Positions 9,600-26,391 of a stretch of DNA of 44,080 nt are shown piece after piece. Origin of the DNA: a virus (lineage: Duplodnaviria > Heunggongvirae > Uroviricota > Caudoviricetes). The stretch is from positions 1-44,080 of the IMG/VR virus record IMGVR_UViG_2609460218_000014. One strand, written 5' to 3'. Made by a program: the position numbers and the translations under genes. A model generated the notes under the pieces. That model worked only from the letters and a program-made list of their open reading frames with translations, was not told the DNA's origin and ran no database searches. Position 1 is the stretch's first letter. Each line of letters opens with the position of its first letter.

Positions 9600-9611
9600 C
9601 ACGCTACCGCC
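9600..9611 (-). promoter_or_regulatory. ops element (RfaH recruitment site, part of JUMPstart) in the waaQ operon leader
   Basis: Plus strand reads cacgctaccgcc, the reverse complement of GGCGGTAGCGTG, in the untranslated leader upstream of waaQ. Confidence 0.75.
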
Positions 9612-9962
9612 CCAGGCTCAACAGCTACCTGAATACTGATACCGCACTGATATTGACGCGCTAGTGTATCACTTCTTTCGCGGCAATCCGACCCGAATGA
9701 TTTTTAAGCACATTGTTGATTTTCAATAAAGAAATCAATCAAATAAAATCATTAGCAACCATATTCTTTCACTGTTGCTCTGCGATTCCTTCCTGCACGT
9801 ACAGCAGAAATCAATGAATCGCATAAAAATACAAAAAAAGTATAGATGTTCAGCAAGAATTGGCGGGTAAATTGCTATTTAAGTCAAAAACGGGAAAAGT
9901 AATGGTAAAGCCACAGCTAAATACATAGAATCCCCAGCACATCCATAAGTCAGCTATTTACT

Positions 9963-18100: not shown

Positions 18101-18964
18101 ATGATCCGCAGTATGACCGCCTACGCCCGGCGTGAAATCAAGGGTGAATGGGGGAGCGCAACCTGGGAAATGCGCTCGGTAAACCAGCGTTATCTGGAAA
18201 CTTACTTTCGTCTGCCGGAGCAGTTCCGTAGCCTTGAACCTGTCGTTCGCGAGCGTATTCGTTCTCGCCTGACGCGCGGTAAAGTGGAATGTANCCTGCG
18301 CTATGAGCCAGATGTTAGCGCACAAGGTGAGCTGATCCTCAATGAAAAACTGGCTAAACAGCTGGTAACTGCCGCGAACTGGGTAAAAATGCAGAGTGAC
18401 GAAGGGGAAATCAACCCGGTTGATATTCTGCGCTGGCCGGGCGTGATGGCAGNCCAGGAGCAGGATCTCGACGCCATTGCCGCTGAAATTCTCGCGGCGC
18501 TGGATGGTACGCTGGACGACTTTATTGTCGCGCGCGAAACCGAAGGTCAGGCACTGAAAGCATTGATCGAGCAGCGTCTGGAAGGCGTCACCGCCGAAGT
18601 GGTCAAAGTCCGCGCCCATATGCCGGAAATCCTGCAATGGCAGCGTGAGCGTCTGGTCGCGAAGCTGGAAGATGCTCAGGTTCAGTTGGAAAACAACCGT
18701 CTGGAGCAGGAGTTGGTTCTGCTGGCACAACGAATTGACGTTGCCGAAGAACTGGACCGCCTGGAAGCGCATGTCAAAGAGACCTACAACATTCTGAAGA
18801 AAAAAGAAGCCGTTGGTCGTCGTCTGGACTTTATGATGCAGGAATTCAACCGCGAGTCGAACACTCTTGCGTCGAAATCTATCAATGCCGAAGTGACAAA
18901 CTCCGCCATCGAGCTGAAAGTGTTGATTGAGCAGATGCGCGAGCAGATTCAGAACATTGAGTAG
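18101..18964 (+). CDS. yicC: YicC-family stress-induced protein
   Basis: 287 aa, MIRSMTAYARREIKGEWGSATWEMRSVNQRYLE...; conserved neighbour of rph. Confidence 0.9.
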   Translation: MIRSMTAYARREIKGEWGSATWEMRSVNQRYLETYFRLPEQFRSLEPVVRERIRSRLTRGKVECXLRYEPDVSAQGELILNEKLAKQLVTAANWVKMQSDEGEINPVDILRWPGVMAXQEQDLDAIAAEILAALDGTLDDFIVARETEGQALKALIEQRLEGVTAEVVKVRAHMPEILQWQRERLVAKLEDAQVQLENNRLEQELVLLAQRIDVAEELDRLEAHVKETYNILKKKEAVGRRLDFMMQEFNRESNTLASKSINAEVTNSAIELKVLIEQMREQIQNIE

Positions 18965-19004
18965 CGTATCACCTCATATCATTCAGAATCACCAACCAGA
19001 AGAA

Positions 19005-19028
19005 GCCCGCTAATCACGGGCTTTTTTC
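19005..19028 (+). terminator. Intrinsic terminator of yicC
   Basis: Hairpin gcccg-ctaatca-cgggc followed by tttttt. Confidence 0.7.
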
Positions 19029-19140
19029 ATATCACAAAGTTGCAGTTAGCATCATAAAAGCGCATATTTCTCGTGTACCCAATAGTGTCCCTATGAGGCA
19101 GAGGCATTAAGTAGATAGGGTACGCAACCAATGAGGTGAT

Positions 19141-20396
19141 ATGGGCAAGCTAACAGACATTCAGATCAAGGCCTGGATAAAGGCCGGAACAAGGTTCGAG
19201 GGTAAATCGGACGGTAACGGTTTATATTTGCGCTATCGCACTACTGACACGTCCCCATCATGGCGTTTCCGCTACCGCTTCGCTGGCAAGCCTCGTGTTA
19301 TGACAATTGGCGCGTATGGCGTTATCTCACTGGCTAAAGCCGGGAGATCACCCGAGAGCTGGCTGCTCGTGTTTCTCTGGGGTATGACGTTGCCGGTGAG
19401 AAGCAGGAGCGAAAAGCCGCATTAAAAGCCCAGTTGGAAGCCGACCAGCATGACAAAACAGTGTCCGAAGTAGCTGAAGACTATTTTAAGAAGAAAGTAC
19501 TGGGTACATGGAAACACCCCGACATCCTCCGCCGTCGTCTGGCGAAAGACATTAATCCTCGCATAGGTCAGAAAAAGGTTAAGGACGTCAAACCCCGAGA
19601 TATTGATGCCTTGCTTCAGGCCATCTTAAAACGTGGTGCGCCATCTATTGCTAATGACGTCTTGCGCTGGATACGTCGTATCTTTGACCATGCGATCAAG
19701 CTGGGGATGATTGAGGTTAACCCCGCTGCTGCCTTTGATATGAGTGACGCGGGCGGTAAGGAAACATCTCGTGAACGTTGGTTAACCAGGCAGGAACTGG
19801 TTCAATTCTTTGAAGCCATGCGAATGGCAAAAGGCTTTAGTCGTGAGAACGAGTTAACTCTAAAGCTGCTGCTGGTCACTTGCGTGAGAAAGATGGAACT
19901 GTGCGCCGCACGCTGGAGCGAGTTCGATTTAGCCAACGGCATTTGGTACTTACCGGGCGAACGCACAAAGACAGGCGACGGGATTGATATTCCACTGCCA
20001 AAACAGGCTATCGAATGGTTGGAGGAGCTGCGCCTTCTCTCTTGTAACAGCAAATGGGTATTACCTGCGCGAAAACAACAGCATCGCATGATCCCCCATA
20101 TTCAGGAAAGCACCCTACCCGTTGCGCTGGCGAAGGTTAAGCATGAGATGCCTGGTGTACCGAACTTCACTATTCACGACCTTAGGCGCACCGCACGCAC
20201 CCATCTCGAAGCGTTAGGTGTGAATCCCATTGTTGCTGAGCGTTGCCTTAATCACCGCATCAAAGGCGTCGAGGGCATCTACAACCGTCACCAATATTTA
20301 AACGAACGGCGGGAAGCGCTGGCCATGCTGGGCAACCTGATGGAAGCCTTAGAGCGTGGCGAGGAATACAACGTTCAACCATTGAGGAAAGCATGA
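19141..20396 (+). CDS. Tyrosine integrase, P4 family (arm-binding N-domain plus catalytic domain); frameshifted in this sequence
   Basis: Track ORFs 19141..19425 and 19434..20396; N-terminus KLTDIQIKAW...GNGLYLRYRTT...WRFRYRFAGK and C-terminal HDLRRTARTHL...YNRHQYLNERR are typical. One missing C in a CCC run near 19337 would restore ISLAKAREITRELAARVSLGYDVAGEKQERKAA and a single ~418-aa ORF. Confidence 0.85.
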
Positions 20397-20433
20397 TGAT
20401 TCAGTGGATAGGTTTTCAATATTGTTTTTTTGC

Positions 20434-20546
20434 CTGTCCCACGCGTCCCATCTGTCCCGTTTTGTAAAGATAAAATAAATTCAATCAGTTACGAACACTA
20501 ACATGGGACAAAACACGGGACAGGACGGGACAAATTTTTCTGTCCC
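20434..20546. repeat. Array of about 7 GGGACA/TGTCCC hexamer repeats in both orientations (putative protein-binding sites)
   Basis: Three TGTCCC-type copies at about 10-bp spacing (20434-20459), an AT-rich spacer, then three GGGACA copies at 10-12 bp spacing and an inverted pair gggacaaatttttctgtccc (20527..20546); lies between int and orf179. Confidence 0.6.
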
Positions 20547-20586
20547 GTCCTCAAATTGAATAAACAATAACCGATAAGGGCAATAA

Positions 20587-21126
20587 ATGAATGATAACAA
20601 CAGTGTCCCAACGATTACGCTTCATGACCCTAAGCCGTGGTATGAGGTAGACCCATTGGTAATAAATGCTATGGAACTGACCGGCGCATCATATGAAGAA
20701 CTTAACGCCGGGGTATCTCTGTGCGTTGACGTTTGGGACGCCGATAGTCCAAATACTTTCCTTATAAATTGCAGGATCAAATGGGTTAAATACACATATG
20801 ACCTCACAGGTTTCGCCATTGCTCGTTATTTTTGGACTAACCCTGAGAAAGACACCCTGCTAAGTGAGGTAGTTACTACTGAATATCAGCGTAGGAGAGA
20901 ATCTCTTGAGCTGGAGATAAAAAAGGAGCGGGAAAAGAACGCCGGTTACGGGAAAACAAACCCGAAAAAAGATGAGATTATTGAAGAGTTTAAATTGTGG
21001 AAAGAAAAATACCCACAAGGCAGTTGTAAACAATTTCATCAACAGCTAACACGGCAAACAAAAAGAGGGGAAAAAGTCCCTTCAGTTAGAAGCATACAAG
21101 ACTGGACGAAAATACTGCGCAATTAA
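20587..21126 (+). CDS. Hypothetical protein (179 aa), island-encoded, no family recognised
   Basis: ORF with a good SD (aaggg 8 nt upstream of ATG); acidic N-half, lysine-rich charged C-half (EIKKEREKNAGYGKTNPKKDEIIEEFKLWKEKYPQ); located between int and alpA. Confidence 0.55.
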   Translation: MNDNNSVPTITLHDPKPWYEVDPLVINAMELTGASYEELNAGVSLCVDVWDADSPNTFLINCRIKWVKYTYDLTGFAIARYFWTNPEKDTLLSEVVTTEYQRRRESLELEIKKEREKNAGYGKTNPKKDEIIEEFKLWKEKYPQGSCKQFHQQLTRQTKRGEKVPSVRSIQDWTKILRN

Positions 21127-21197
21127 AAACAACTGCGCAATTAGCTCGGTATCCTCTCAGTACGTCGCAAATAGACGCGTTCACAGAGGAATTAAAT

Positions 21198-21392
21198 ATG
21201 AAAAATGATTTTCCCTTATCTGGCTACGTTCGCCCTTCTCGGGTGAGCGAATTCCTAGATATAAGCCCGGCCACAATGTGGCGCTGGGCAGCAAAGAGTG
21301 AGTTTCCAAAAAGCCGTAAGCTGAGTTCCCGCGTAACAGTTTTTGATGCCGCAGAAATCAGACGTTGGCTGGCGGCGAAAAGTGCAGATTAA
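21198..21392 (+). CDS. alpA: AlpA-family transcriptional regulator / excisionase-like winged-helix protein
   Basis: 64 aa; VRPSRVSEFLDISPATMWRWAAKSEFPKSRKLSSRVTVFDAAEIRRWL matches the AlpA signature; SD gagga upstream. Confidence 0.85.
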   Translation: MKNDFPLSGYVRPSRVSEFLDISPATMWRWAAKSEFPKSRKLSSRVTVFDAAEIRRWLAAKSAD

Positions 21393-21407
21393 TGGAGGTG
21401 GTGAGTT

Positions 21408-21884
21408 ATGAGCTTAATCGCTGAGATTCAAACGGCAGCATCNGGTAAGTGGCCTGCCGTGTTACGTGCTTTAGGCGTCGACGTGCCTGAAAAGCAGGCG
21501 CACATCCCTTGTCCCGTATGTGGCGGCAAAGACCGGTTTCACTTTAAACACGACGATGTAGGTTCGAGTTACTGCCGGGGGTGTAATAAGTGGCGCGACG
21601 GATTACAGCTAGCTCGAGATTGTGGGGCCTCTGTTTCTCAGATCGCCAATGCCGCTGGAATAAACACAACGCGCCACGCGCCGCTAGGCAGGCGAAAGGT
21701 CAGCTTGCCACCACACACAACTGCGTTACTGGCTGGGAAGCAGAAATTAAGGGAGCAGGGTGCAGAATGGATAAAAGTGTGGCTGGACTGTCAGGAGGCA
21801 GCAATTTTATGGCACGAATATGAAAAAAACGGCAGCCCCTTTGAGGAGAGCCGCCGTCTTTATGGACTACATAGACAACTTTAA
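21408..21884 (+). CDS. Primase-type zinc-ribbon protein (Cys-X2-Cys-X17-Cys-X2-Cys), no catalytic primase domain evident
   Basis: 158 aa; CPVCGGKDRFHFKHDDVGSSYCRGC as in primase-helicase zinc-binding domains; strong SD ggaggtg; start overlaps alpA stop. Confidence 0.7.
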   Translation: MSLIAEIQTAAXGKWPAVLRALGVDVPEKQAHIPCPVCGGKDRFHFKHDDVGSSYCRGCNKWRDGLQLARDCGASVSQIANAAGINTTRHAPLGRRKVSLPPHTTALLAGKQKLREQGAEWIKVWLDCQEAAILWHEYEKNGSPFEESRRLYGLHRQL

Positions 21885-21892
21885 TTCTTTGC

Positions 21893-21916
21893 GCTTCCCG
21901 GTTGCCCCCGGGAAGC
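21893..21916 (+). other. Perfect 9-bp stem hairpin between the zinc-ribbon gene and the helicase gene
   Basis: gcttcccgg-ttgccc-ccgggaagc with no following T-run; in the 56-bp gap between the two genes. Confidence 0.4.
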
Positions 21917-21940
21917 AAAACAACAAGGGACATAATCACC

Positions 21941-23377
21941 ATGTCAGAGAATACTGTAACTCACCTACCTCTCAAGTCAACCATGAAAGAACCGGTGTCC
22001 GGTGCGCCAGCACAGGCGGCTAAGTATGATTCTATGCCGCTGGCAAAGATGCAACCCGGCGAACGCATCGCCGCGTTTGTTGCAAAGACTGGCCGTTATT
22101 CACTTCATCGGGCAAGTGATACCTTGTACCGTTTTGATGGTGCTATCTGGCGGGCAATCAGCGATTCAGCTGTGAAAAGTGATTTAGCAGACTTCTACAT
22201 GACCCGCGGCTTTCAACCCGGTGCCAGTGTCTTTGAAAGCGACGCGCGAGCGCTGAAGATATATTCATCGACCAAACAATCTCCAGAGATGGCGGAACCA
22301 AAAGCCGGGGTAATCGCCTTTGCCAACGGCGTTTACTCAATCATAGACGGTTCATTTTCCAGCCATTGTGCGGAAAACTGGTTGCGCTCACATAACGGCA
22401 TAGACTATGCAGCAGCACTCCCCGGAGAGACACTGAGCGGCAGTGCCCCACATTTTAGCAAGTGGCTAGCGCACAATGCCGGTAATGATGAAGCGAAGGC
22501 CAAGCGGATACTGGCGGCTCTGTATATGGTTCTGACTCATCGCTACGAATGGCAGCTATACGTTGAGGTAACTGGCAAAGGTGGTAGCGGTAAGAGTGTA
22601 TTTATGTCTCTGTGCAGATTGCTATCAGGGGAAGACGGCTCAAAGGCTACAACCTTACACGCGCTGCGCGACTCAATGGCTCTAGAAACATTGATTGATG
22701 CCAGGCTCATTACCATGAGTGATCAGCCCGCATATAGCGGCGATTGTGCGAATTTAAAAGCCATTACCGGCGGTGACTCCATTTTCATCAATCCCAAGTA
22801 CAAGAAGGGGTTCGATGCGAAAATTAACGCCGTTGTAGTCGTGGCTAACAACGAACCTGCTGTATTTACTGAGCATAACGGGGGCATATCCCGCCGCCGG
22901 GTACTGTTTAAGTTTGGTGAACCGGTAGAAAGACCTGACCCTGAGTTTATGGCGAAGATAAAAACTGAATTGCCGGTAATCGTGCGTCACTTGCTCAAGG
23001 AATTGGATGATACTACCGCAAAAAGTCTGCTCATCCAGCAACGAGACTCAGAGGAATCGTTTGACGCTAAAGCGGAGGCCAGTAGCATTTACTCCTTCGT
23101 TAAACACCTGGACCCACTGCCAGCGCCTACAGGTATGCGCATGGGTGGCAAGGCATCATCCTCAAACGCGGAGCGGCCCAGAGAGTTCCTTTACCATGCG
23201 TATTTGGCATTTATGCAATACAACGGGTTCCAGAATCCACTTTCGGTTCTGAAATTCAGGCAAGCTGTTATTGCGATAATGAAAGAGCGCGGGCACGAGT
23301 TCGCGGATAAAAGGGACTCCGTTGGTCTCCGCTACAACGTGGAGTTGGCCGAATCAGCCAGCGAATGGCTTCCGTAA
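21941..23377 (+). CDS. SF3 (D5/P4-type) replicative helicase / NTPase, the C-terminal domain family of phage-plasmid primases
   Basis: Track ORF 21902..23377; likely start MSENTVTHLPL; Walker A VTGKGGSGKSVF, Walker B-like LITMSD, sensor-like VVVVANNEP; directly upstream of the iteron region. Confidence 0.8.
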   Translation: MSENTVTHLPLKSTMKEPVSGAPAQAAKYDSMPLAKMQPGERIAAFVAKTGRYSLHRASDTLYRFDGAIWRAISDSAVKSDLADFYMTRGFQPGASVFESDARALKIYSSTKQSPEMAEPKAGVIAFANGVYSIIDGSFSSHCAENWLRSHNGIDYAAALPGETLSGSAPHFSKWLAHNAGNDEAKAKRILAALYMVLTHRYEWQLYVEVTGKGGSGKSVFMSLCRLLSGEDGSKATTLHALRDSMALETLIDARLITMSDQPAYSGDCANLKAITGGDSIFINPKYKKGFDAKINAVVVVANNEPAVFTEHNGGISRRRVLFKFGEPVERPDPEFMAKIKTELPVIVRHLLKELDDTTAKSLLIQQRDSEESFDAKAEASSIYSFVKHLDPLPAPTGMRMGGKASSSNAERPREFLYHAYLAFMQYNGFQNPLSVLKFRQAVIAIMKERGHEFADKRDSVGLRYNVELAESASEWLP

Positions 23378-23397
23378 CATACTTTCAACATTAAAAG

Positions 23398-23425
23398 CTG
23401 GGGCGCATGATTGCGCCCTTTTTTA
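23398..23425 (+). terminator. Intrinsic terminator after the helicase gene
   Basis: gggcgca-tgat-tgcgccc followed by tttttt. Confidence 0.7.
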
Positions 23426-23466
23426 ATTCCATCGATAGATCAGAATATTTAGNTTTTTTTATGAAA

Positions 23467-23690
23467 GTCCTACATGTCTTACACCAAATGAAATTAAATT
23501 ATATATAACAATAAATTAGATAATGTAGGACCTTAAAAATATCCTACACAGGTCCTACATAACTCCTGCACTCGAAGCCTCGTAGTGTAGGGTTTAAGGA
23601 AGCCCCTCGCCAGTCCTACACAAGTCCTGCACTTTCTAACAAATTGTTTTAAATGATTTTTTTAATGGAGAATGTAGGAGTGTAGGACAT
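23467..23690. repeat. Iteron cluster (about 8 copies of GTCCTACA / TGTAGGAC in both orientations) next to an AT-rich stretch: putative island replication origin
   Basis: Copies at about 23467, 23523, 23543, 23552, 23585, 23613, 23672, 23681; preceded by an AT-rich segment (23440-23520); no ORF of 60 aa or more on either strand between 23378 and 24087. Confidence 0.6.
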
Positions 23691-24195
23691 GAAGGACTTT
23701 CCAGGAAAAACTATATTTTGAATATTTGAGCCTAAAAAATGGACACCCTTGCGCTACGCGCCGCTAGGCAGGGAAAGTGGTTTTCATAACATGTATTTAA
23801 CAATCGCATTCCCATTCGGAACCAGCGGGCCGGAATGATCCTGATACAGGCGTTCAGCATGGAGTGAGAATCAACGTTTTTTGATGCCCTACTGACCCCA
23901 GATTAATCTTTGGTCGGTAGCGGGAAGCCTTCGTTCTGGTCAGGGTAATGTCAGGGTGATGCTTACGTTTTATGACTATTTTAGTTAGCAATAGTTAGCA
24001 ACCTACTCAAATCAAAACTTCTCAAAGTTAATTCCTAAAACGAAAAAGCCCCCACATTTCTGTAGGGGCCGTTTCGTCATTCTGCGCTTGATGGTCGGAA
24101 GGATGGCCGACAAATATATACTATCTCTTTATGTACTCACGAACCAGTACGATAGTACAATAAGCCGTCAATTCTTCAAAATGATGGTGATAGCG

Positions 24196-24588
24196 ATGAA
24201 CGAAGTAGATTCAATTCTGGCCGAGCAGAAAAGAGCCGCAGAACAACGCCGCTTGGCTAATGAGAAGAAGCGCCATCCATCCGGCCTGTACGCCGTTGGT
24301 GATGGGTGGTATGTGAAGCAAATCGAAGAGCTTCACTCCCCGCTTGGTCTTAGCAAGGTGGTTCTGGTAAGCCCTGATGATGTTTGTGTGAGATATCAGC
24401 GCCAATATGGCAAAGCACTCACCACTGACAAATTGAAGGAATGGAGCAGGGACGGGAACTTCCCTTTGCCGCGCTCTATTAATGGGGTTATCGGTTGGGA
24501 ATCGAATGTTGTGACCAATGGCCTGAATGAACTGAGCAAAGCAGCCGGTCGAGGTTATACCAGTATTACACGAGGGTTCGCACGATGA
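24196..24588 (+). CDS. Hypothetical protein (track ORF 24088..24588, 166 aa; likely start at MNEVD giving about 130 aa), first gene of cargo cassette
   Basis: Protein-like composition; SD-like ggtgat upstream of the internal ATG; stop overlaps the next ORF start (ATGA). No family recognised. Confidence 0.5.
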   Translation: MNEVDSILAEQKRAAEQRRLANEKKRHPSGLYAVGDGWYVKQIEELHSPLGLSKVVLVSPDDVCVRYQRQYGKALTTDKLKEWSRDGNFPLPRSINGVIGWESNVVTNGLNELSKAAGRGYTSITRGFAR

Positions 24589-24782
24589 GCAAAGAATCTG
24601 TAATGGCGGCATTGAGAAAGGCGCGTGAAGGCAATATCTTTGGCGGTACTGGTCAGGCCGAATTTAACAAAAATTTTTACGCTGGCCGCGTCACCAAAAC
24701 AGATGGTGTTAGTAAGACCGACAGTAACGAGCCGATGAACCAAAAGGCATTTAATGCCCGGTTCTATGCGGGGAAATCATGA
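24585..24782 (+). CDS. Hypothetical small protein (65 aa) with internal duplicated N-x-x-F-Y-A-G-[RK] motif
   Basis: ATGA overlap with the upstream ORF and SD gaggg; NKNFYAGRV and NARFYAGKS repeat within the protein. Confidence 0.5.
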   Translation: MSKESVMAALRKAREGNIFGGTGQAEFNKNFYAGRVTKTDGVSKTDSNEPMNQKAFNARFYAGKS

Positions 24783-24841
24783 CTGAGGCATATGCGCTCT
24801 GTGTGATGCTGTACTGCTACCTGATGCTTATCTGCCCGTAA
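24779..24841 (+). CDS. Possible 20-aa hydrophobic Cys-rich peptide (MTEAYALCVMLYCYLMLICP)
   Basis: Start overlaps the ORF65 stop (ATGA), SD-like gggga upstream, followed by a hairpin terminator. Too short for any compositional statistics. Confidence 0.3.
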   Translation: MTEAYALCVMLYCYLMLICP

Positions 24842-24860
24842 CCTTCCCTCACTGCCAAGC

Positions 24861-24884
24861 GCCGCCGAAAGGCGGTTTCTTTTG
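24861..24884 (+). terminator. Putative short intrinsic terminator/attenuator after the coupled ORFs
   Basis: ccgcc-gaaa-ggcgg (GNRA-type loop) followed by tttcttttg. Confidence 0.4.
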
Positions 24885-24901
24885 ACCTGATGGAGTCTGT
24901 C

Positions 24902-25183
24902 ATGCTGAATGTGAACCGCTTGCCCAACAGCACCCGCCTACAGATTGCCGCCGCTATTGCTGAAGAGGTTTACGCGCTGGATCTGGATGATGAGGCGTTA
25001 ATTCATGAGCTGCGTCGTTATGGATTCAGCCAGGCTTATGCGGAAGCAATGACTTTCAGATTTATGACGCCAGCCTTTGAAATCGCAGATCCACGGCGCG
25101 AACGTAAAACAAAAATGCCAGCGCCCACCTCTCANCCCGAATGGGTTTTTGTTGATAATGTTTTAATGAAGATCACGGCGTGA
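24902..25183 (+). CDS. Hypothetical protein (track ORF 24890..25183, 97 aa; likely start at MLNVNRL)
   Basis: SD ggag 9 nt upstream of the second ATG; contains one N; last ORF before the island's right end. No family recognised. Confidence 0.5.
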   Translation: MLNVNRLPNSTRLQIAAAIAEEVYALDLDDEALIHELRRYGFSQAYAEAMTFRFMTPAFEIADPRRERKTKMPAPTSXPEWVFVDNVLMKITA

Positions 25184-25382
25184 CTTACACAAAATTACAA
25201 TTGGTCATAAATCACACAATAAAAATTGTAATCCCTGTAAATCCATGTACCCATACGTGTACACAAGCAAAACAAGAAAAACAAAAATCATTTAAATATC
25301 AATACATATAACCCACAATTCAATATTCAGATTCAATATTGAGTAACTCGTAACACTAATTCTTACTTTTCAGCCTTCACAA

Positions 25383-25523: not shown

Positions 25524-25566
25524 ACAGATTTACTTTCTTTGCAATCGATATCACATGGAGTGGGCA

Positions 25567-26391
25567 ATGAACGAACATCATCAACCTTTTGAAGAAATAC
25601 GGCATTATGGCACTGAAGGGCAAGAATTTTGGTCAGCTAGAGAATTGGCACCGTTACTGGATTATCGGGACTGGCGCAATTTTCAAAAGGTACTGGCCCG
25701 CGCGACTCAAGCGTGCGAAGCCAGCAATCAAGCTGCATCTGACCATTTCGTTGAAACCACCAAAATGGTTGTATTAGGTTCAGGGGCTCAACGAGAACTT
25801 GAAGATGTTCATCTCTCCCGCTATGCCTGTTACCTGGTAGTACAAAACGGCGACCCTGCGAAACCGGTTATTGCGGCAGGGCAAACTTATTTTGCTATCC
25901 AGACCCGACGGCAGGAGCTGGCTGACGATGAAGCTTTCAGGCAACTTCGTGAAGACGAAAAGCGTCTTTTTCTGAGAAATGAATTGAAAGAACATAACAA
26001 ACAATTGGTTGAGGCAGCGCAGCAAGCTGGGGGAGCGACAGCTATCGATTTCGCCATATTTCAGAATCATGGTTACCGGGGGCTGTATGGTGGATTAGAT
26101 CAGAAAGCTATTCATCAGCGGAAGGGGCTGAAAAAGAATCAGAAGATCCTGGATCATATGGGTTCAACAGAACTGGCGGCTAATCTCTTTCGAGCTACCC
26201 AAACAGAAGAAAAACTCAAGCGGGATGGCGTGAATTCAAAACAGCAAGCAAACACCACACACTTTGACGTGGGTCGCAAGGTGAGGCAAACCATTCAGGA
26301 ACTTGGCGGAACCATGCCTGAGGAGTTGCCGACCCCGCAGGTCAGCATCAAGCAGTTGGAAAACAGTGTAAAAATTACAGAGAAGAAATAG
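25567..26391 (+). CDS. dinD: DNA damage-inducible protein D
   Basis: Track ORF 25555..26391; MNEHHQPFEEIRHYGTEGQEFWSARELAPLLDYRDWRNF... matches DinD as recalled; LexA box upstream. Confidence 0.9.
   Translation: MNEHHQPFEEIRHYGTEGQEFWSARELAPLLDYRDWRNFQKVLARATQACEASNQAASDHFVETTKMVVLGSGAQRELEDVHLSRYACYLVVQNGDPAKPVIAAGQTYFAIQTRRQELADDEAFRQLREDEKRLFLRNELKEHNKQLVEAAQQAGGATAIDFAIFQNHGYRGLYGGLDQKAIHQRKGLKKNQKILDHMGSTELAANLFRATQTEEKLKRDGVNSKQQANTTHFDVGRKVRQTIQELGGTMPEELPTPQVSIKQLENSVKITEKK

What the first reader, a model, noticed from the sequence alone, without database searches (positions are those of the whole stretch)
21408..23377. Replication module split into a zinc-ribbon-only protein and an SF3 helicase, with no recognisable primase catalytic domain
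Phage-plasmid primases of the P4 alpha type fuse zinc ribbon, primase and helicase in one polypeptide. Here a 158-aa zinc-ribbon protein and a separate helicase are divided by a 56-bp gap with a perfect 9-bp hairpin, and neither shows obvious TOPRIM or AEP motifs by eye. Either the island depends on host or helper priming, or the primase fold is divergent, or a draft-sequence frameshift splits a single gene.
Basis: partly seen in the sequence, partly recalled or inferred. Interest (0 to 1): 0.4.

Follow-up and report, generated by a model that had tools for sequence, protein, structure and literature searches.

The report
Satellite replicon: orphan primase zinc domain plus helicase
A 6.4-kb mobile island in E. 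coli carries the two ends of a phage P4-type primase-helicase as two separate, intact genes and has lost the primer-making middle part, so it probably borrows a primase from its host or a helper phage; the hairpin between the genes probably belongs to a small antisense RNA that controls the helicase.

Summary

The split is not a draft frameshift. It recurs in 9 complete E. coli genomes and in Kluyvera and Enterobacter. The gap length (55, 56, 57 or 64 nt) changes the frame relation between the genes. The ZBD is under purifying selection (dN/dS about 0.04-0.1).

The module is alpA-zbd-rep-ori of a minimalist island inserted in the 3' end of yicC. Relatives sit at fis, flanked by the PICMI att repeat. 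GTCCTRCA iterons lie directly downstream of rep.

New result: the hairpin lies inside a candidate antisense RNA of about 125 nt. It has a conserved -35/-10, a GC hairpin and a covarying terminator, and it is complementary to the helicase start.

Priming in trans by the host or a helper is inferred, not shown. I rate this a new variant of a known kind, of moderate interest.

The parts
18944..18963 (.). Left island border (attL): imperfect direct repeat at the 3' end of yicC (CAGATTCA..ATTGAGTA)
   Evidence: Homology to island-free E. coli genomes stops at about 18963-18966. The repeat halves are shared with 25328-25345.
19141..20396 (+). Tyrosine integrase. In this window it is broken by a 1-nt deletion near 19340; it is an intact 1257-nt gene in complete genomes.
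   Evidence: Pfam Arm-DNA-bind_3, Phage_int_M and Phage_integrase. Alignment to L100 shows the single 1-nt gap.
20587..21126 (+). orf179, unknown function. It sits between int and alpA, the position of iolg/icg in PICMIs.
   Evidence: No match in Pfam, NCBIfam, PHROGs, PADLOC or PDB sequences. Annotated as hypothetical in complete genomes.
21198..21392 (+). alpA (AlpA-family regulator), first gene of the alpA-zbd-rep operon
   Evidence: Pfam Phage_AlpA, E=2.5e-10. Only 15 nt separate it from the ZBD gene.
21408..21884 (+). zbd: 158-aa protein. Residues 1-85 (21408-21662) are the primase zinc-binding domain, with C35/C38/C56/C59 at 21510, 21519, 21573 and 21582. Residues 86-158 are a variable helical tail.
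21893..21916 (.). Perfect 9-bp GC-rich hairpin with a 6-nt loop in the 56-nt gap. It is stem-loop I of the candidate antisense RNA and of its mRNA target.
   Evidence: Sequence and fold. Relatives carry four unrelated perfect stems at the same place, and the loop is reverse-complemented twice.
21818..21980 (-). Candidate antisense RNA unit on the minus strand. It comprises -35 TTGACT (21980-21975), -10 TACAGT (21958-21953), a predicted 5' end near 21945 opposite the helicase SD/ATG, stem-loop I, and an intrinsic terminator (21861-21825 plus a T7 run). Predicted length is about 125 nt.
   Evidence: Promoter and terminator scan. The same layout occurs in 16 loci, including ones with unrelated sequence. 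In the terminator stem 98% of cells are paired and 6 of 10 pairs change on both sides; 0 of 500 shuffles reach this. No Rfam family matches.
21941..23377 (+). rep: 478-aa self-loading SF3 helicase-initiator. Residues 1-33 are a disordered N-peptide, 34-180 are D5_N (22040-22480), about 200-330 are the ATPase with Walker A GKGGSGKS at 22574-22597, and about 410-478 are a winged-helix origin-binding domain (23168-23374).
23400..23425 (+). Intrinsic terminator after rep
   Evidence: GGGGCGCATGATTGCGCCC followed by a T run.
23455..23710 (.). Putative origin. Six exact GTCCTRCA iterons in both orientations, plus degenerate copies, flank an AT-rich stretch (about 23486-23522).
   Evidence: The window has 8 matches, 6 of them clustered here. 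The expected number is 1.8, and 0 of 100 shuffles reach 8. Repeat families D2, D11, I1 and I9. The layout matches SaPI ori, which lies immediately downstream of rep (PMC9371898, PMC7581432).
24088..25183 (+). Cargo ORFs (orf166, orf65, orf97) of unknown function
   Evidence: No hits in Pfam, PHROGs or PADLOC. The gene set is conserved in relatives.
25328..25345 (.). Right island border (attR)
   Evidence: Homology to island-free genomes resumes at 25328, where it is annotated as the end of yicC. Repeat halves.

Best explanation
This is the replication module (alpA-zbd-rep-ori) of a roughly 6.4-kb helper-dependent minimalist island of the PICMI type. It descends from a P4 alpha-type ZBD-TOPRIM-helicase.

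Rep (478 aa) is a self-loading SF3 helicase-initiator. Its C-terminal P4-type winged helix probably binds the GTCCTRCA iterons just downstream and opens the AT-rich origin.

The TOPRIM catalytic core has been lost, so the island makes no primase of its own. Primers must come in trans, from host DnaG (probably after host primosome loading on the unwound origin) or from a helper phage primase.

The zinc-binding domain has been kept as a separate, selected protein: ZBD, then a linker-like helix, then a short tail. It most likely still works in priming or template handling next to Rep, but its exact role is unknown.

The gap between the two genes is a control point. A roughly 125-nt antisense RNA, transcribed from a promoter inside the first rep codons, contains the hairpin and is complementary to the rep ribosome-binding site. 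It would hold Rep synthesis down, as plasmid countertranscripts do.

Shown: domain content, absence of TOPRIM/AEP, genuine split, purifying selection, iterons, conservation and covariation of the antisense unit.
Inferred: iteron binding, priming in trans, the role of the ZBD, expression and action of the antisense RNA, helper dependence.
For: - Domain content and missing core.
- Fused relatives carry Zn_Ribbon_Prim + Toprim_3 + D5_N + DUF5906 + Pox_D5.
- The split is real.
- Selection on the ZBD: synonymous sites are saturated while dN is 0.15-0.24, and measurable pairs give dN/dS of 0.04-0.10.
- Iteron cluster immediately after rep. This is the SaPI/P4 arrangement (PMC9371898), and the origin-binding domain is 35% identical to P4 alpha's.
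- Precedent for a dispensable element primase: PMC7581432, citing Ubeda 2008.
- Island type: int-alpA-x-prim(DUF5906) in about 6 kb. Relatives are flanked by TCAGTTCATGCCGTAT, the 3' end of fis and the same att repeat as PICMIs (PMC10803314).
- Antisense unit.
- No other island ORF matches any primase family.
Against: - No experiment or expression data were available.
- The ZBD tail model has low confidence (pLDDT 46-65), so a contact with Rep is unproven.
- The tail type does not strictly co-vary with the Rep N-peptide: tail A occurs with two different N-peptides.
- In Vibrio PICMI115, the gene in the same position (up1, not shown to be related) is dispensable for transfer (PMC10803314).
- SF3 helicases do not normally recruit DnaG, so the route to host priming is unclear.
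- The antisense promoter is only a consensus match. Its -35 overlaps a conserved K-S-T in Rep, which could be conserved for protein reasons.
- The 10 sequences used for covariation are related, and the structure was derived from them.
Confidence: 0.6

Rival explanations
1. A sequencing or assembly frameshift in a draft genome splits what is really one P4 alpha-type gene.
For: The window is draft quality. It has 25 N, and the neighbouring integrase carries a 1-nt deletion relative to complete genomes.
Against: - The same split occurs in 9 complete E. coli chromosomes and in other genera.
- The gap length varies (55, 56, 57, 64 nt), so the frame relation varies.
- In-frame stops lie in the gap.
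- About 150 codons of TOPRIM are simply absent.
Confidence: 0.01
2. A cryptic or novel primase is present. It could be a divergent catalytic fold in the ZBD tail or the Rep N-terminus, a composite active site formed by ZBD plus Rep, or one of the unannotated island ORFs (orf179, orf166). The precedent is the non-canonical CCPol-MP primase of SCCmec.
For: - Mobile elements do hide non-canonical primases that work with small partner proteins (PMC7581432, PMC10061031).
- The ZBD is under selection, which suggests priming-related work.
- Four island ORFs have no detectable family.
Against: - The AF2 models account for all ordered residues of both proteins with ZBD, helices, D5_N, SF3 ATPase and winged helix.
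- The tail is about 70 residues of helix and differs between close relatives.
- The unannotated ORFs are small (65-179 aa) and sit in positions that PICMIs use for excision helpers and cargo (PMC10803314).
Confidence: 0.1
3. The ZBD protein does not serve island replication. It could be a decoy or inhibitor aimed at the primase-helicase of a helper or competing phage (interference or defence), or a DNA-binding regulator.
For: - Satellites commonly interfere with helpers and carry defence genes.
- up1, in the same position in PICMI115, is dispensable for transfer yet conserved (PMC10803314).
- The ZBD core and the tail recombine as modules.
- A divergent ZBD-only protein occurs in a temperate-phage early region with no adjacent helicase.
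Against: - It is co-transcribed and tightly linked with rep in every relative.
- Its sequence is closest to the N-terminus of fused primase-helicases.
- No PADLOC match.
Confidence: 0.15
4. The module is a decaying remnant of a P4-like primase gene and no longer replicates anything.
For: TOPRIM has been lost. The window's integrase is frameshifted. One E. coli copy has a shortened 124-aa ZBD gene.
Against: - Both ORFs are intact across E. coli, Citrobacter, Enterobacter and Kluyvera, at two integration sites.
- dN/dS is well below 1.
- Walker A and the arginine-finger residues are invariant.
- Iterons and regulatory elements are conserved.
Confidence: 0.05

Closest known systems
Phage P4 gp alpha-type primase-helicase (Zn_Ribbon_Prim + Toprim_3 + D5_N + SF3 helicase + origin-binding domain; e.g. 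the 813-aa Enterobacter protein P0033)
   Same: The ZBD is 46% identical over residues 1-70. The helicase is 40% identical over 448 residues. The origin-binding domain is 35% identical to the solved P4 domain 1ka8. Iterons lie near the gene.
   Different: The TOPRIM catalytic region (about residues 100-340 of the fused protein) is absent. The ZBD and the helicase are separate genes with a regulated gap. A new helical tail follows the ZBD.
SaPI / PICI pri-rep-ori replicons (self-loading Rep helicases; PDB 7ola, 7pds)
   Different: SaPI Pri is an AEP primase with a catalytic domain. Here the upstream gene encodes only a DnaG-type ZBD. The host is Gram-negative and the regulator is AlpA.
PICMI minimalist satellites of Vibrionaceae (PMC10803314)
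   Same: About 6 kb. Gene order is int, a small gene, alpA, one small gene, 'prim' defined by DUF5906, then cargo. There are no capsid or packaging genes. Kluyvera and Enterobacter relatives sit at the 3' end of fis with the same att repeat.
   Different: The window copy is inserted at the 3' end of yicC with a different integrase, and the host is E. coli. The PICMI paper reported no complete PICMI outside Vibrio. Helper dependence is untested here. Homology of the ZBD gene to up1 was not established.
Split ZBD-TOPRIM plus helicase pairs (e.g. Shewanella loci L010 and L011: 337-aa ZBD-TOPRIM overlapping a 481-524-aa helicase)
   Same: Two genes, with the ZBD-bearing one first and a D5_N/SF3 helicase second.
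   Different: Those first genes keep the TOPRIM domain.
Plasmid countertranscript control of rep (R1 CopA, ColE2 RNA I, pT181 RNA I; from general knowledge)
   Same: A short antisense RNA with stem-loops and an intrinsic terminator, complementary to the rep translation-initiation region.
   Different: No sequence or Rfam relationship. The setting is an integrated satellite rather than a plasmid. The RNA overlaps the 3' end of the preceding coding gene. Expression has not been shown.

Membership tests
P4 alpha-type primase-helicase | N-terminal C4 zinc-binding domain (PF08273) | tested here: met
P4 alpha-type primase-helicase | TOPRIM primase catalytic domain (Toprim_3, PF13362) | tested here: not met
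   No hit in Pfam, NCBIfam or PHROGs. A TOPRIM HMM built from fused relatives finds nothing in this family. The AF2 models show no such fold.
P4 alpha-type primase-helicase | D5_N plus SF3 helicase with Walker A/B and an arginine finger | tested here: met
P4 alpha-type primase-helicase | C-terminal winged-helix origin-binding domain | tested here: met
P4 alpha-type primase-helicase | All activities in one polypeptide | tested here: not met
   Two genes in all 16 loci examined.
SaPI/PICI-type Rep-ori replicon | Iteron origin immediately downstream of rep, flanking AT-rich DNA | tested here: met
   Six GTCCTRCA copies at 23467-23688 around an AT-rich core; 0 of 100 shuffles reach the observed count. 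Binding by Rep was not tested.
SaPI/PICI-type Rep-ori replicon | Separate or fused primase (AEP) gene upstream of rep | tested here: not met
   The upstream gene has a ZBD only.
PICMI satellites | Co-located int, alpA and prim (DUF5906/DUF3987) in an element of about 6 kb with no morphogenesis genes | tested here: met
   The island spans about 18944-25345.
PICMI satellites | Integration next to fis | tested here: not met
   The window copy is at the 3' end of yicC. The feature is met by relatives L003, L004 and L089, which are flanked by the fis 3'-end repeat.
PICMI satellites | Induction, replication and packaging by a helper phage | not testable with these tools
   Needs infection experiments.
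DnaG-type primase | ZBD plus RNA-polymerase (TOPRIM) domain plus helicase-binding domain | tested here: not met
   Only the ZBD is present. The tail has low confidence and has no match.
Antisense-RNA (countertranscript) control of rep | Promoter on the opposite strand within the rep leader or start | tested here: inconclusive
   -35 TTGACT is invariant, the spacer is 16 nt and the -10 is TAnnnT in all 16 loci, even though the coding sequence differs. This is consensus evidence only.
Antisense-RNA (countertranscript) control of rep | Stem-loop(s) and an intrinsic terminator kept by compensatory change; complementarity to the rep RBS | tested here: met
   There are four unrelated perfect stem-loop I sequences. 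In the terminator 98% of cells are paired, 6 of 10 pairs change on both sides, and it exceeds all shuffles and all slid controls. The predicted 5' end lies opposite the ATG at 21941.
Antisense-RNA (countertranscript) control of rep | The RNA is expressed and lowers Rep synthesis or copy number | not testable with these tools
   Needs RNA-seq or Northern blots and reporter assays.

The most novel reading that the evidence does not exclude
The free-standing ZBD is a trans-acting adaptor. Tethered to the satellite's SF3 helicase by its tail, it would present template to a foreign TOPRIM primase (host DnaG or the helper phage's primase), forming a hybrid primosome and letting a minimal satellite do without its own catalytic domain. 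Standalone ZBD genes in phages, such as P0263 in a temperate-phage early region with no helicase, would then belong to a wider, unrecognised class of primase-recruiting factors. A satellite-specific antisense RNA would gate the whole module.
Probability: 0.15. Interest if true: 0.7.

Novelty: new variant of a known kind. Interest (0 to 1): 0.45.

Why it matters
Phage satellites are routinely said to encode a 'primase' because their Rep proteins hit DUF5906 or primase_Cterm models. This case shows cleanly that such a gene can be a helicase-initiator with no primase chemistry, so annotation and satellite-finding models overstate what these elements can do.

The module also gives a natural dissection of a P4 alpha-type enzyme. 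The zinc domain is kept and selected without its catalytic partner. That makes a specific question testable: what does a primase ZBD do by itself, and can it work with a foreign primase?

The work extends PICMI-like minimalist satellites to Enterobacteriaceae, both at fis and at a second site (yicC). It also points to an antisense RNA as a possible brake on satellite replication; I did not find such a brake described for these elements in the papers I searched.

Tried and rejected
1. Draft frameshift. Rejected by complete genomes, variable gap lengths and missing coding space.

2. Programmed -1 frameshift or read-through fusion. Rejected. The helicase frame is closed by a stop at 21872, only two codons before the ZBD stop. 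The frame relation differs between relatives, and the in-frame relative L002 has a second stop in the gap.

3. The hairpin as a plus-strand intrinsic terminator. Rejected, because no T run follows it in any of the four sequence types.

4. Co-variation of the ZBD tail with the Rep N-terminal peptide as evidence of contact. The first loci suggested it, but L089 combines tail A with a third N-peptide, so it is not supported.

5. Middle-length 'DNA primase family' relatives (571-611 aa) as TOPRIM-bearing intermediates. hhalign of their N-termini against TOPRIM gives probability 0.1%, and Pfam finds nothing there. Only P0035 is a truncated TOPRIM form.

6. Known RNA family for the gap or the antisense unit. 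Nothing in Rfam reaches threshold, and the best E-value hits are far below gathering scores.

7. Primase or defence function in the other island ORFs. No hits in Pfam, NCBIfam, PHROGs, PADLOC or PDB sequences.

8. Other ZBD-only plus helicase pairs.
- Among 80 species-representative genome loci, every complete ORF with a ZBD is long (at least 286 aa, apart from one 232-aa ORF, L084) and most carry a detectable TOPRIM. The two ZBD ORFs split from their partner are L026 and L072, which look like pseudogenes.
- Among 80 viral loci, no complete ZBD ORF is shorter than 284 aa.
- Many short hits in the representative search are truncated copies of fused genes.

9. Whether PICMI115 up1 is a ZBD. The paper and its supplements give no sequence-level annotation, and 'zinc' does not occur in them. 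Unresolved.

10. A structural alignment of stem-loop I for pair counting. MAFFT did not place the unrelated stems in register, so stem-loop I is argued from direct reading only.
Full report
**Observation**

The ORF table and sequence show a 158-aa ORF at 21408-21884. It has a good Shine-Dalgarno sequence and starts 15 nt after an alpA gene (21198-21392). A 56-nt gap follows (21885-21940), then a 478-aa ORF from the ATG at 21941 to 23377.

- Pfam places Zn_Ribbon_Prim (PF08273) on residues 32-65 of the first protein (E=1.4e-8).
- Pfam places D5_N, DUF5906 and Pox_D5 on the second protein.
- NCBIfam gives only TIGR01613 'primase_Cterm', below its cut-off.
- The gap holds GCTTCCCGG/TTGCCC/CCGGGAAGC at 21893-21916. 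It folds at -19.9 kcal/mol, z = -3.0.

**Is a primase domain hidden?**

Sequence profiles say no. PHROGs 'DNA primase' families match the two proteins only at their ends. For phrog_2249, with 802 positions, the ZBD protein covers positions 13-56 and the helicase covers 396-793.

Fused relatives found with the helicase have the architecture Zn_Ribbon_Prim + Toprim_3 + D5_N + DUF5906 + Pox_D5 (P0033, 813 aa).
- The window's first protein aligns to P0033 residues 4-73 (46% identity).
- The second aligns to residues 360-801 (40% identity).
- The intervening segment of about 290 residues, which contains TOPRIM at 222-319, has no counterpart.

The structures agree.
- The AF2 model of the first protein is confident for residues 1-85 (pLDDT 83-92) and shows helix-helix-three-stranded ribbon-helix-helix. 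Three low-confidence helices follow.
- The other island ORFs (179, 166, 65 and 97 aa) match nothing in Pfam, NCBIfam, PHROGs, PADLOC or PDB sequences.

**Is the split real?**

Yes.
- Megablast finds the module in 9 complete E. coli chromosomes. Each is annotated with a 'primase-helicase zinc-binding domain-containing protein' followed by a 'DNA primase family' or DUF5906 protein.
- It also occurs in Kluyvera ascorbata, Enterobacter hormaechei, Citrobacter and metagenome contigs.
- The gap is 55, 56, 57 or 64 nt in different relatives, so the two genes stand in all three frame relations. The helicase frame is closed by a stop at 21872.
- A Nei-Gojobori comparison of ZBD codons 1-73 gives dN of 0.15-0.24 with saturated synonymous sites. 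Where it can be measured, dN/dS is 0.04-0.10; one pair with very few changes gives 0.36.

The ZBD gene is therefore a maintained gene, not debris.

The family alignment shows an almost invariant N-terminal 85 residues and three different tails, giving proteins of 158, 161/162 and 178 aa. ZBD alleles and tails recombine freely. The first part of the tail resembles the charged helical linker that follows the ZBD in fused proteins.

**How unusual is it?**

A profile search of 1.8 billion representatives finds 2010 ZBD relatives in three length classes: short, about 270-370 aa, and 650-960 aa. Many of the short ones I inspected are truncated copies of fused genes.

- Among 80 species-representative genome loci, ZBD ORFs are nearly all long. 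They are either ZBD-TOPRIM-helicase fusions or ORFs of about 290-400 aa, many of which carry a TOPRIM that my narrow HMM detects. The two ZBD ORFs that are split from their partner, L026 and L072, look like pseudogenes.
- Among 80 viral loci, no complete ZBD ORF is shorter than 284 aa.
- The nearest split design is in Shewanella, where the first gene keeps TOPRIM (L010, L011).
- One divergent ZBD-only protein (P0263, 159 aa) lies in the early region of a temperate-phage-like contig with no helicase beside it.

Helicase-only 'primases' are not rare. Relatives of 452-480 aa exist, and a class of 571-611 aa has an N-terminal 124-169 residues with no TOPRIM similarity. The rare feature here is the retained orphan ZBD, not the missing primase.

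**Context**

The window is E. coli-like chromosome, with yicC at 18101-18964 and dinD at 25555-26391.
- Homology to island-free genomes ends at about 18965 and resumes at 25328.
- The borders carry an imperfect repeat of the yicC 3' end.
- The island is about 6.4 kb. About 35 of 5426 complete E. coli genomes carry the left junction.
- Gene order is int, orf179, alpA, zbd, rep, origin, then three small ORFs.

Relatives in Kluyvera (5.8 kb) and Enterobacter (7.4 kb) use a different integrase. They sit at the 3' end of fis, flanked by TCAGTTCATGCCGTAT. That is the att repeat listed for fis-associated elements in the PICMI study.

That study (PMC10803314) describes elements of about 6 kb with int, alpA and a 'prim' recognised by the DUF5906 or DUF3987 models. 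Usually one small gene of unknown function lies between alpA and prim. [quoted passage not shown] The authors found no complete PICMI outside Vibrio. The present family looks like an enterobacterial counterpart. I could not test whether up1 is related to the ZBD gene.

**Origin**

After rep comes an intrinsic terminator (23400-23425). A 250-bp region follows, with six exact GTCCTRCA repeats in both orientations plus degenerate copies around an AT-rich core. The window has 8 matches against 1.8 expected, and 0 of 100 shuffles reach 8. SaPI origins have the same layout and position and are bound by the Rep C-terminal winged helix (PMC9371898, PMC7581432).

**The hairpin**

Relatives carry four unrelated perfect GC-rich stems at the same position (8-10 bp, loops of 6-7 nt). 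Twice, the loop is reverse-complemented between close relatives. None is followed by a T run.

Reading the minus strand explains this. All 16 loci have the following features in order:
- an invariant -35 TTGACT inside rep codons 12-14, which accounts for the K-S-T conserved in otherwise unrelated Rep N-peptides;
- a 16-nt spacer;
- a -10 TAnnnT (TACAGT, TAGACT or TAGAAT);
- a predicted start opposite the rep ATG and Shine-Dalgarno sequence;
- the GC hairpin;
- a strong intrinsic terminator with 7-8 T inside the last codons of the ZBD gene (only 4 T in L001 and L101).

This holds even where the tail and gap sequences are unrelated. On a 10-sequence alignment of the 10-bp terminator stem:
- 98% of cells are paired;
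- 6 pairs change on both sides;
- no shuffle (0 of 500) reaches the observed score;
- slid controls give 36-60% paired.

Some of these changes alter ZBD-tail amino acids (S145R, S149T), which suggests the RNA stem is the selected feature. Two caveats apply: the sequences are related, and the structure was derived from them. Rfam has no matching family.

I read this as a countertranscript of about 125 nt that controls rep translation, by analogy with plasmid copy-control RNAs (general knowledge). Expression is unproven.

**Mechanism**

Shown:
- domain content;
- loss of TOPRIM;
- a genuine two-gene design under selection;
- iterons downstream of rep;
- a conserved antisense unit.

Inferred:
- Rep binds the iterons and self-loads.
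- Primers come from host DnaG or a helper primase. The SaPI primase is reported as not essential (PMC7581432).
- The ZBD protein assists priming or template handling.
- The antisense RNA keeps Rep low until induction.

The weakest step is how an SF3 helicase would engage a foreign primase. The ZBD-as-adaptor idea is attractive but untested, and an anti-phage decoy role cannot be excluded.

**Verdict**

Its frameshift and cryptic-primase alternatives are rejected or unsupported, and its 'host or helper priming' alternative is the best remaining reading. This is a new variant of a known kind: a P4 alpha / SaPI-type replicon in a PICMI-like island. Interest is moderate (0.45), raised somewhat by the orphan ZBD under selection and by the antisense-RNA candidate.

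Noticed in passing
window 21818-21980 (- strand): Candidate antisense RNA of about 125 nt opposite the ZBD 3' end, the gap and the rep start. It has a conserved promoter, a GC hairpin and a covarying terminator, and no Rfam family matches.
   Followed up: yes
window 21893-21916; L001 5794-5850; L003/L005 gaps: The loop of the intergenic hairpin is reverse-complemented between close relatives on two independent occasions (TTGCCC vs GGGCAA; CTCGCAA vs TTGCGAG) while the stems stay identical. This is a flip-flop of a perfect palindrome.
   Followed up: partly
window 21671-21698 and 23751-23777: A 27-nt near-identical direct repeat lies inside the ZBD tail coding region and again in the non-coding region beyond the origin. 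Other loci carry only one of the two copies. Unexplained.
   Followed up: partly
L003 4211-10059, L004, L089 (Kluyvera ascorbata, Enterobacter hormaechei): Islands of 5.8-7.4 kb with int-alpA-zbd-rep are flanked by the fis 3'-end repeat TCAGTTCATGCCGTAT. By the published criteria these are PICMI-like elements in Enterobacteriaceae, where the PICMI study reported none complete.
   Followed up: partly
window 19141-20396: The integrase is split by a 1-nt deletion near 19340 relative to the intact gene of E. coli D72. This is either a draft error (the window has 25 N) or a recent pseudogene.
   Followed up: partly
window 18944-18963 and 25328-25345: The island is inserted in the 3' end of yicC and supplies a replacement end for the gene. 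The left junction is present in about 35 of 5426 complete E. coli genomes.
   Followed up: yes
window 23700-24088, terminator 24070-24047 (- strand): A non-coding stretch of about 390 bp between the origin and orf166 has a strong minus-strand intrinsic terminator (GGCCCCTACAGAAATGTGGGGGC followed by a T run) but no annotated minus-strand gene. It may encode another small RNA.
   Followed up: no
L182 5001-5480, L183: A divergent ZBD-only protein (P0263, 159 aa) lies in the early region of a temperate-phage-like contig (ERF, Sipho_Gp157, DUF968, head-tail connector) with no helicase or TOPRIM nearby.
   Followed up: partly
proteins P0029-P0032, P0036, P0037 etc. (571-611 aa); loci L006-L008: Many satellite 'DNA primase family proteins' have an N-terminal domain of 124-169 aa with no similarity to TOPRIM or to any Pfam family. 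Their primase annotation therefore also rests only on the helicase part.
   Followed up: partly
window 9600-9638 (- strand): JUMPstart RNA element (Rfam RF01707, 55 bits). It is unrelated to the island.
   Followed up: no
L101 4043-4417 (E. coli ET474): This copy has a shortened 124-aa ZBD gene and a 207-nt gap before rep. It may be a decaying variant.
   Followed up: no
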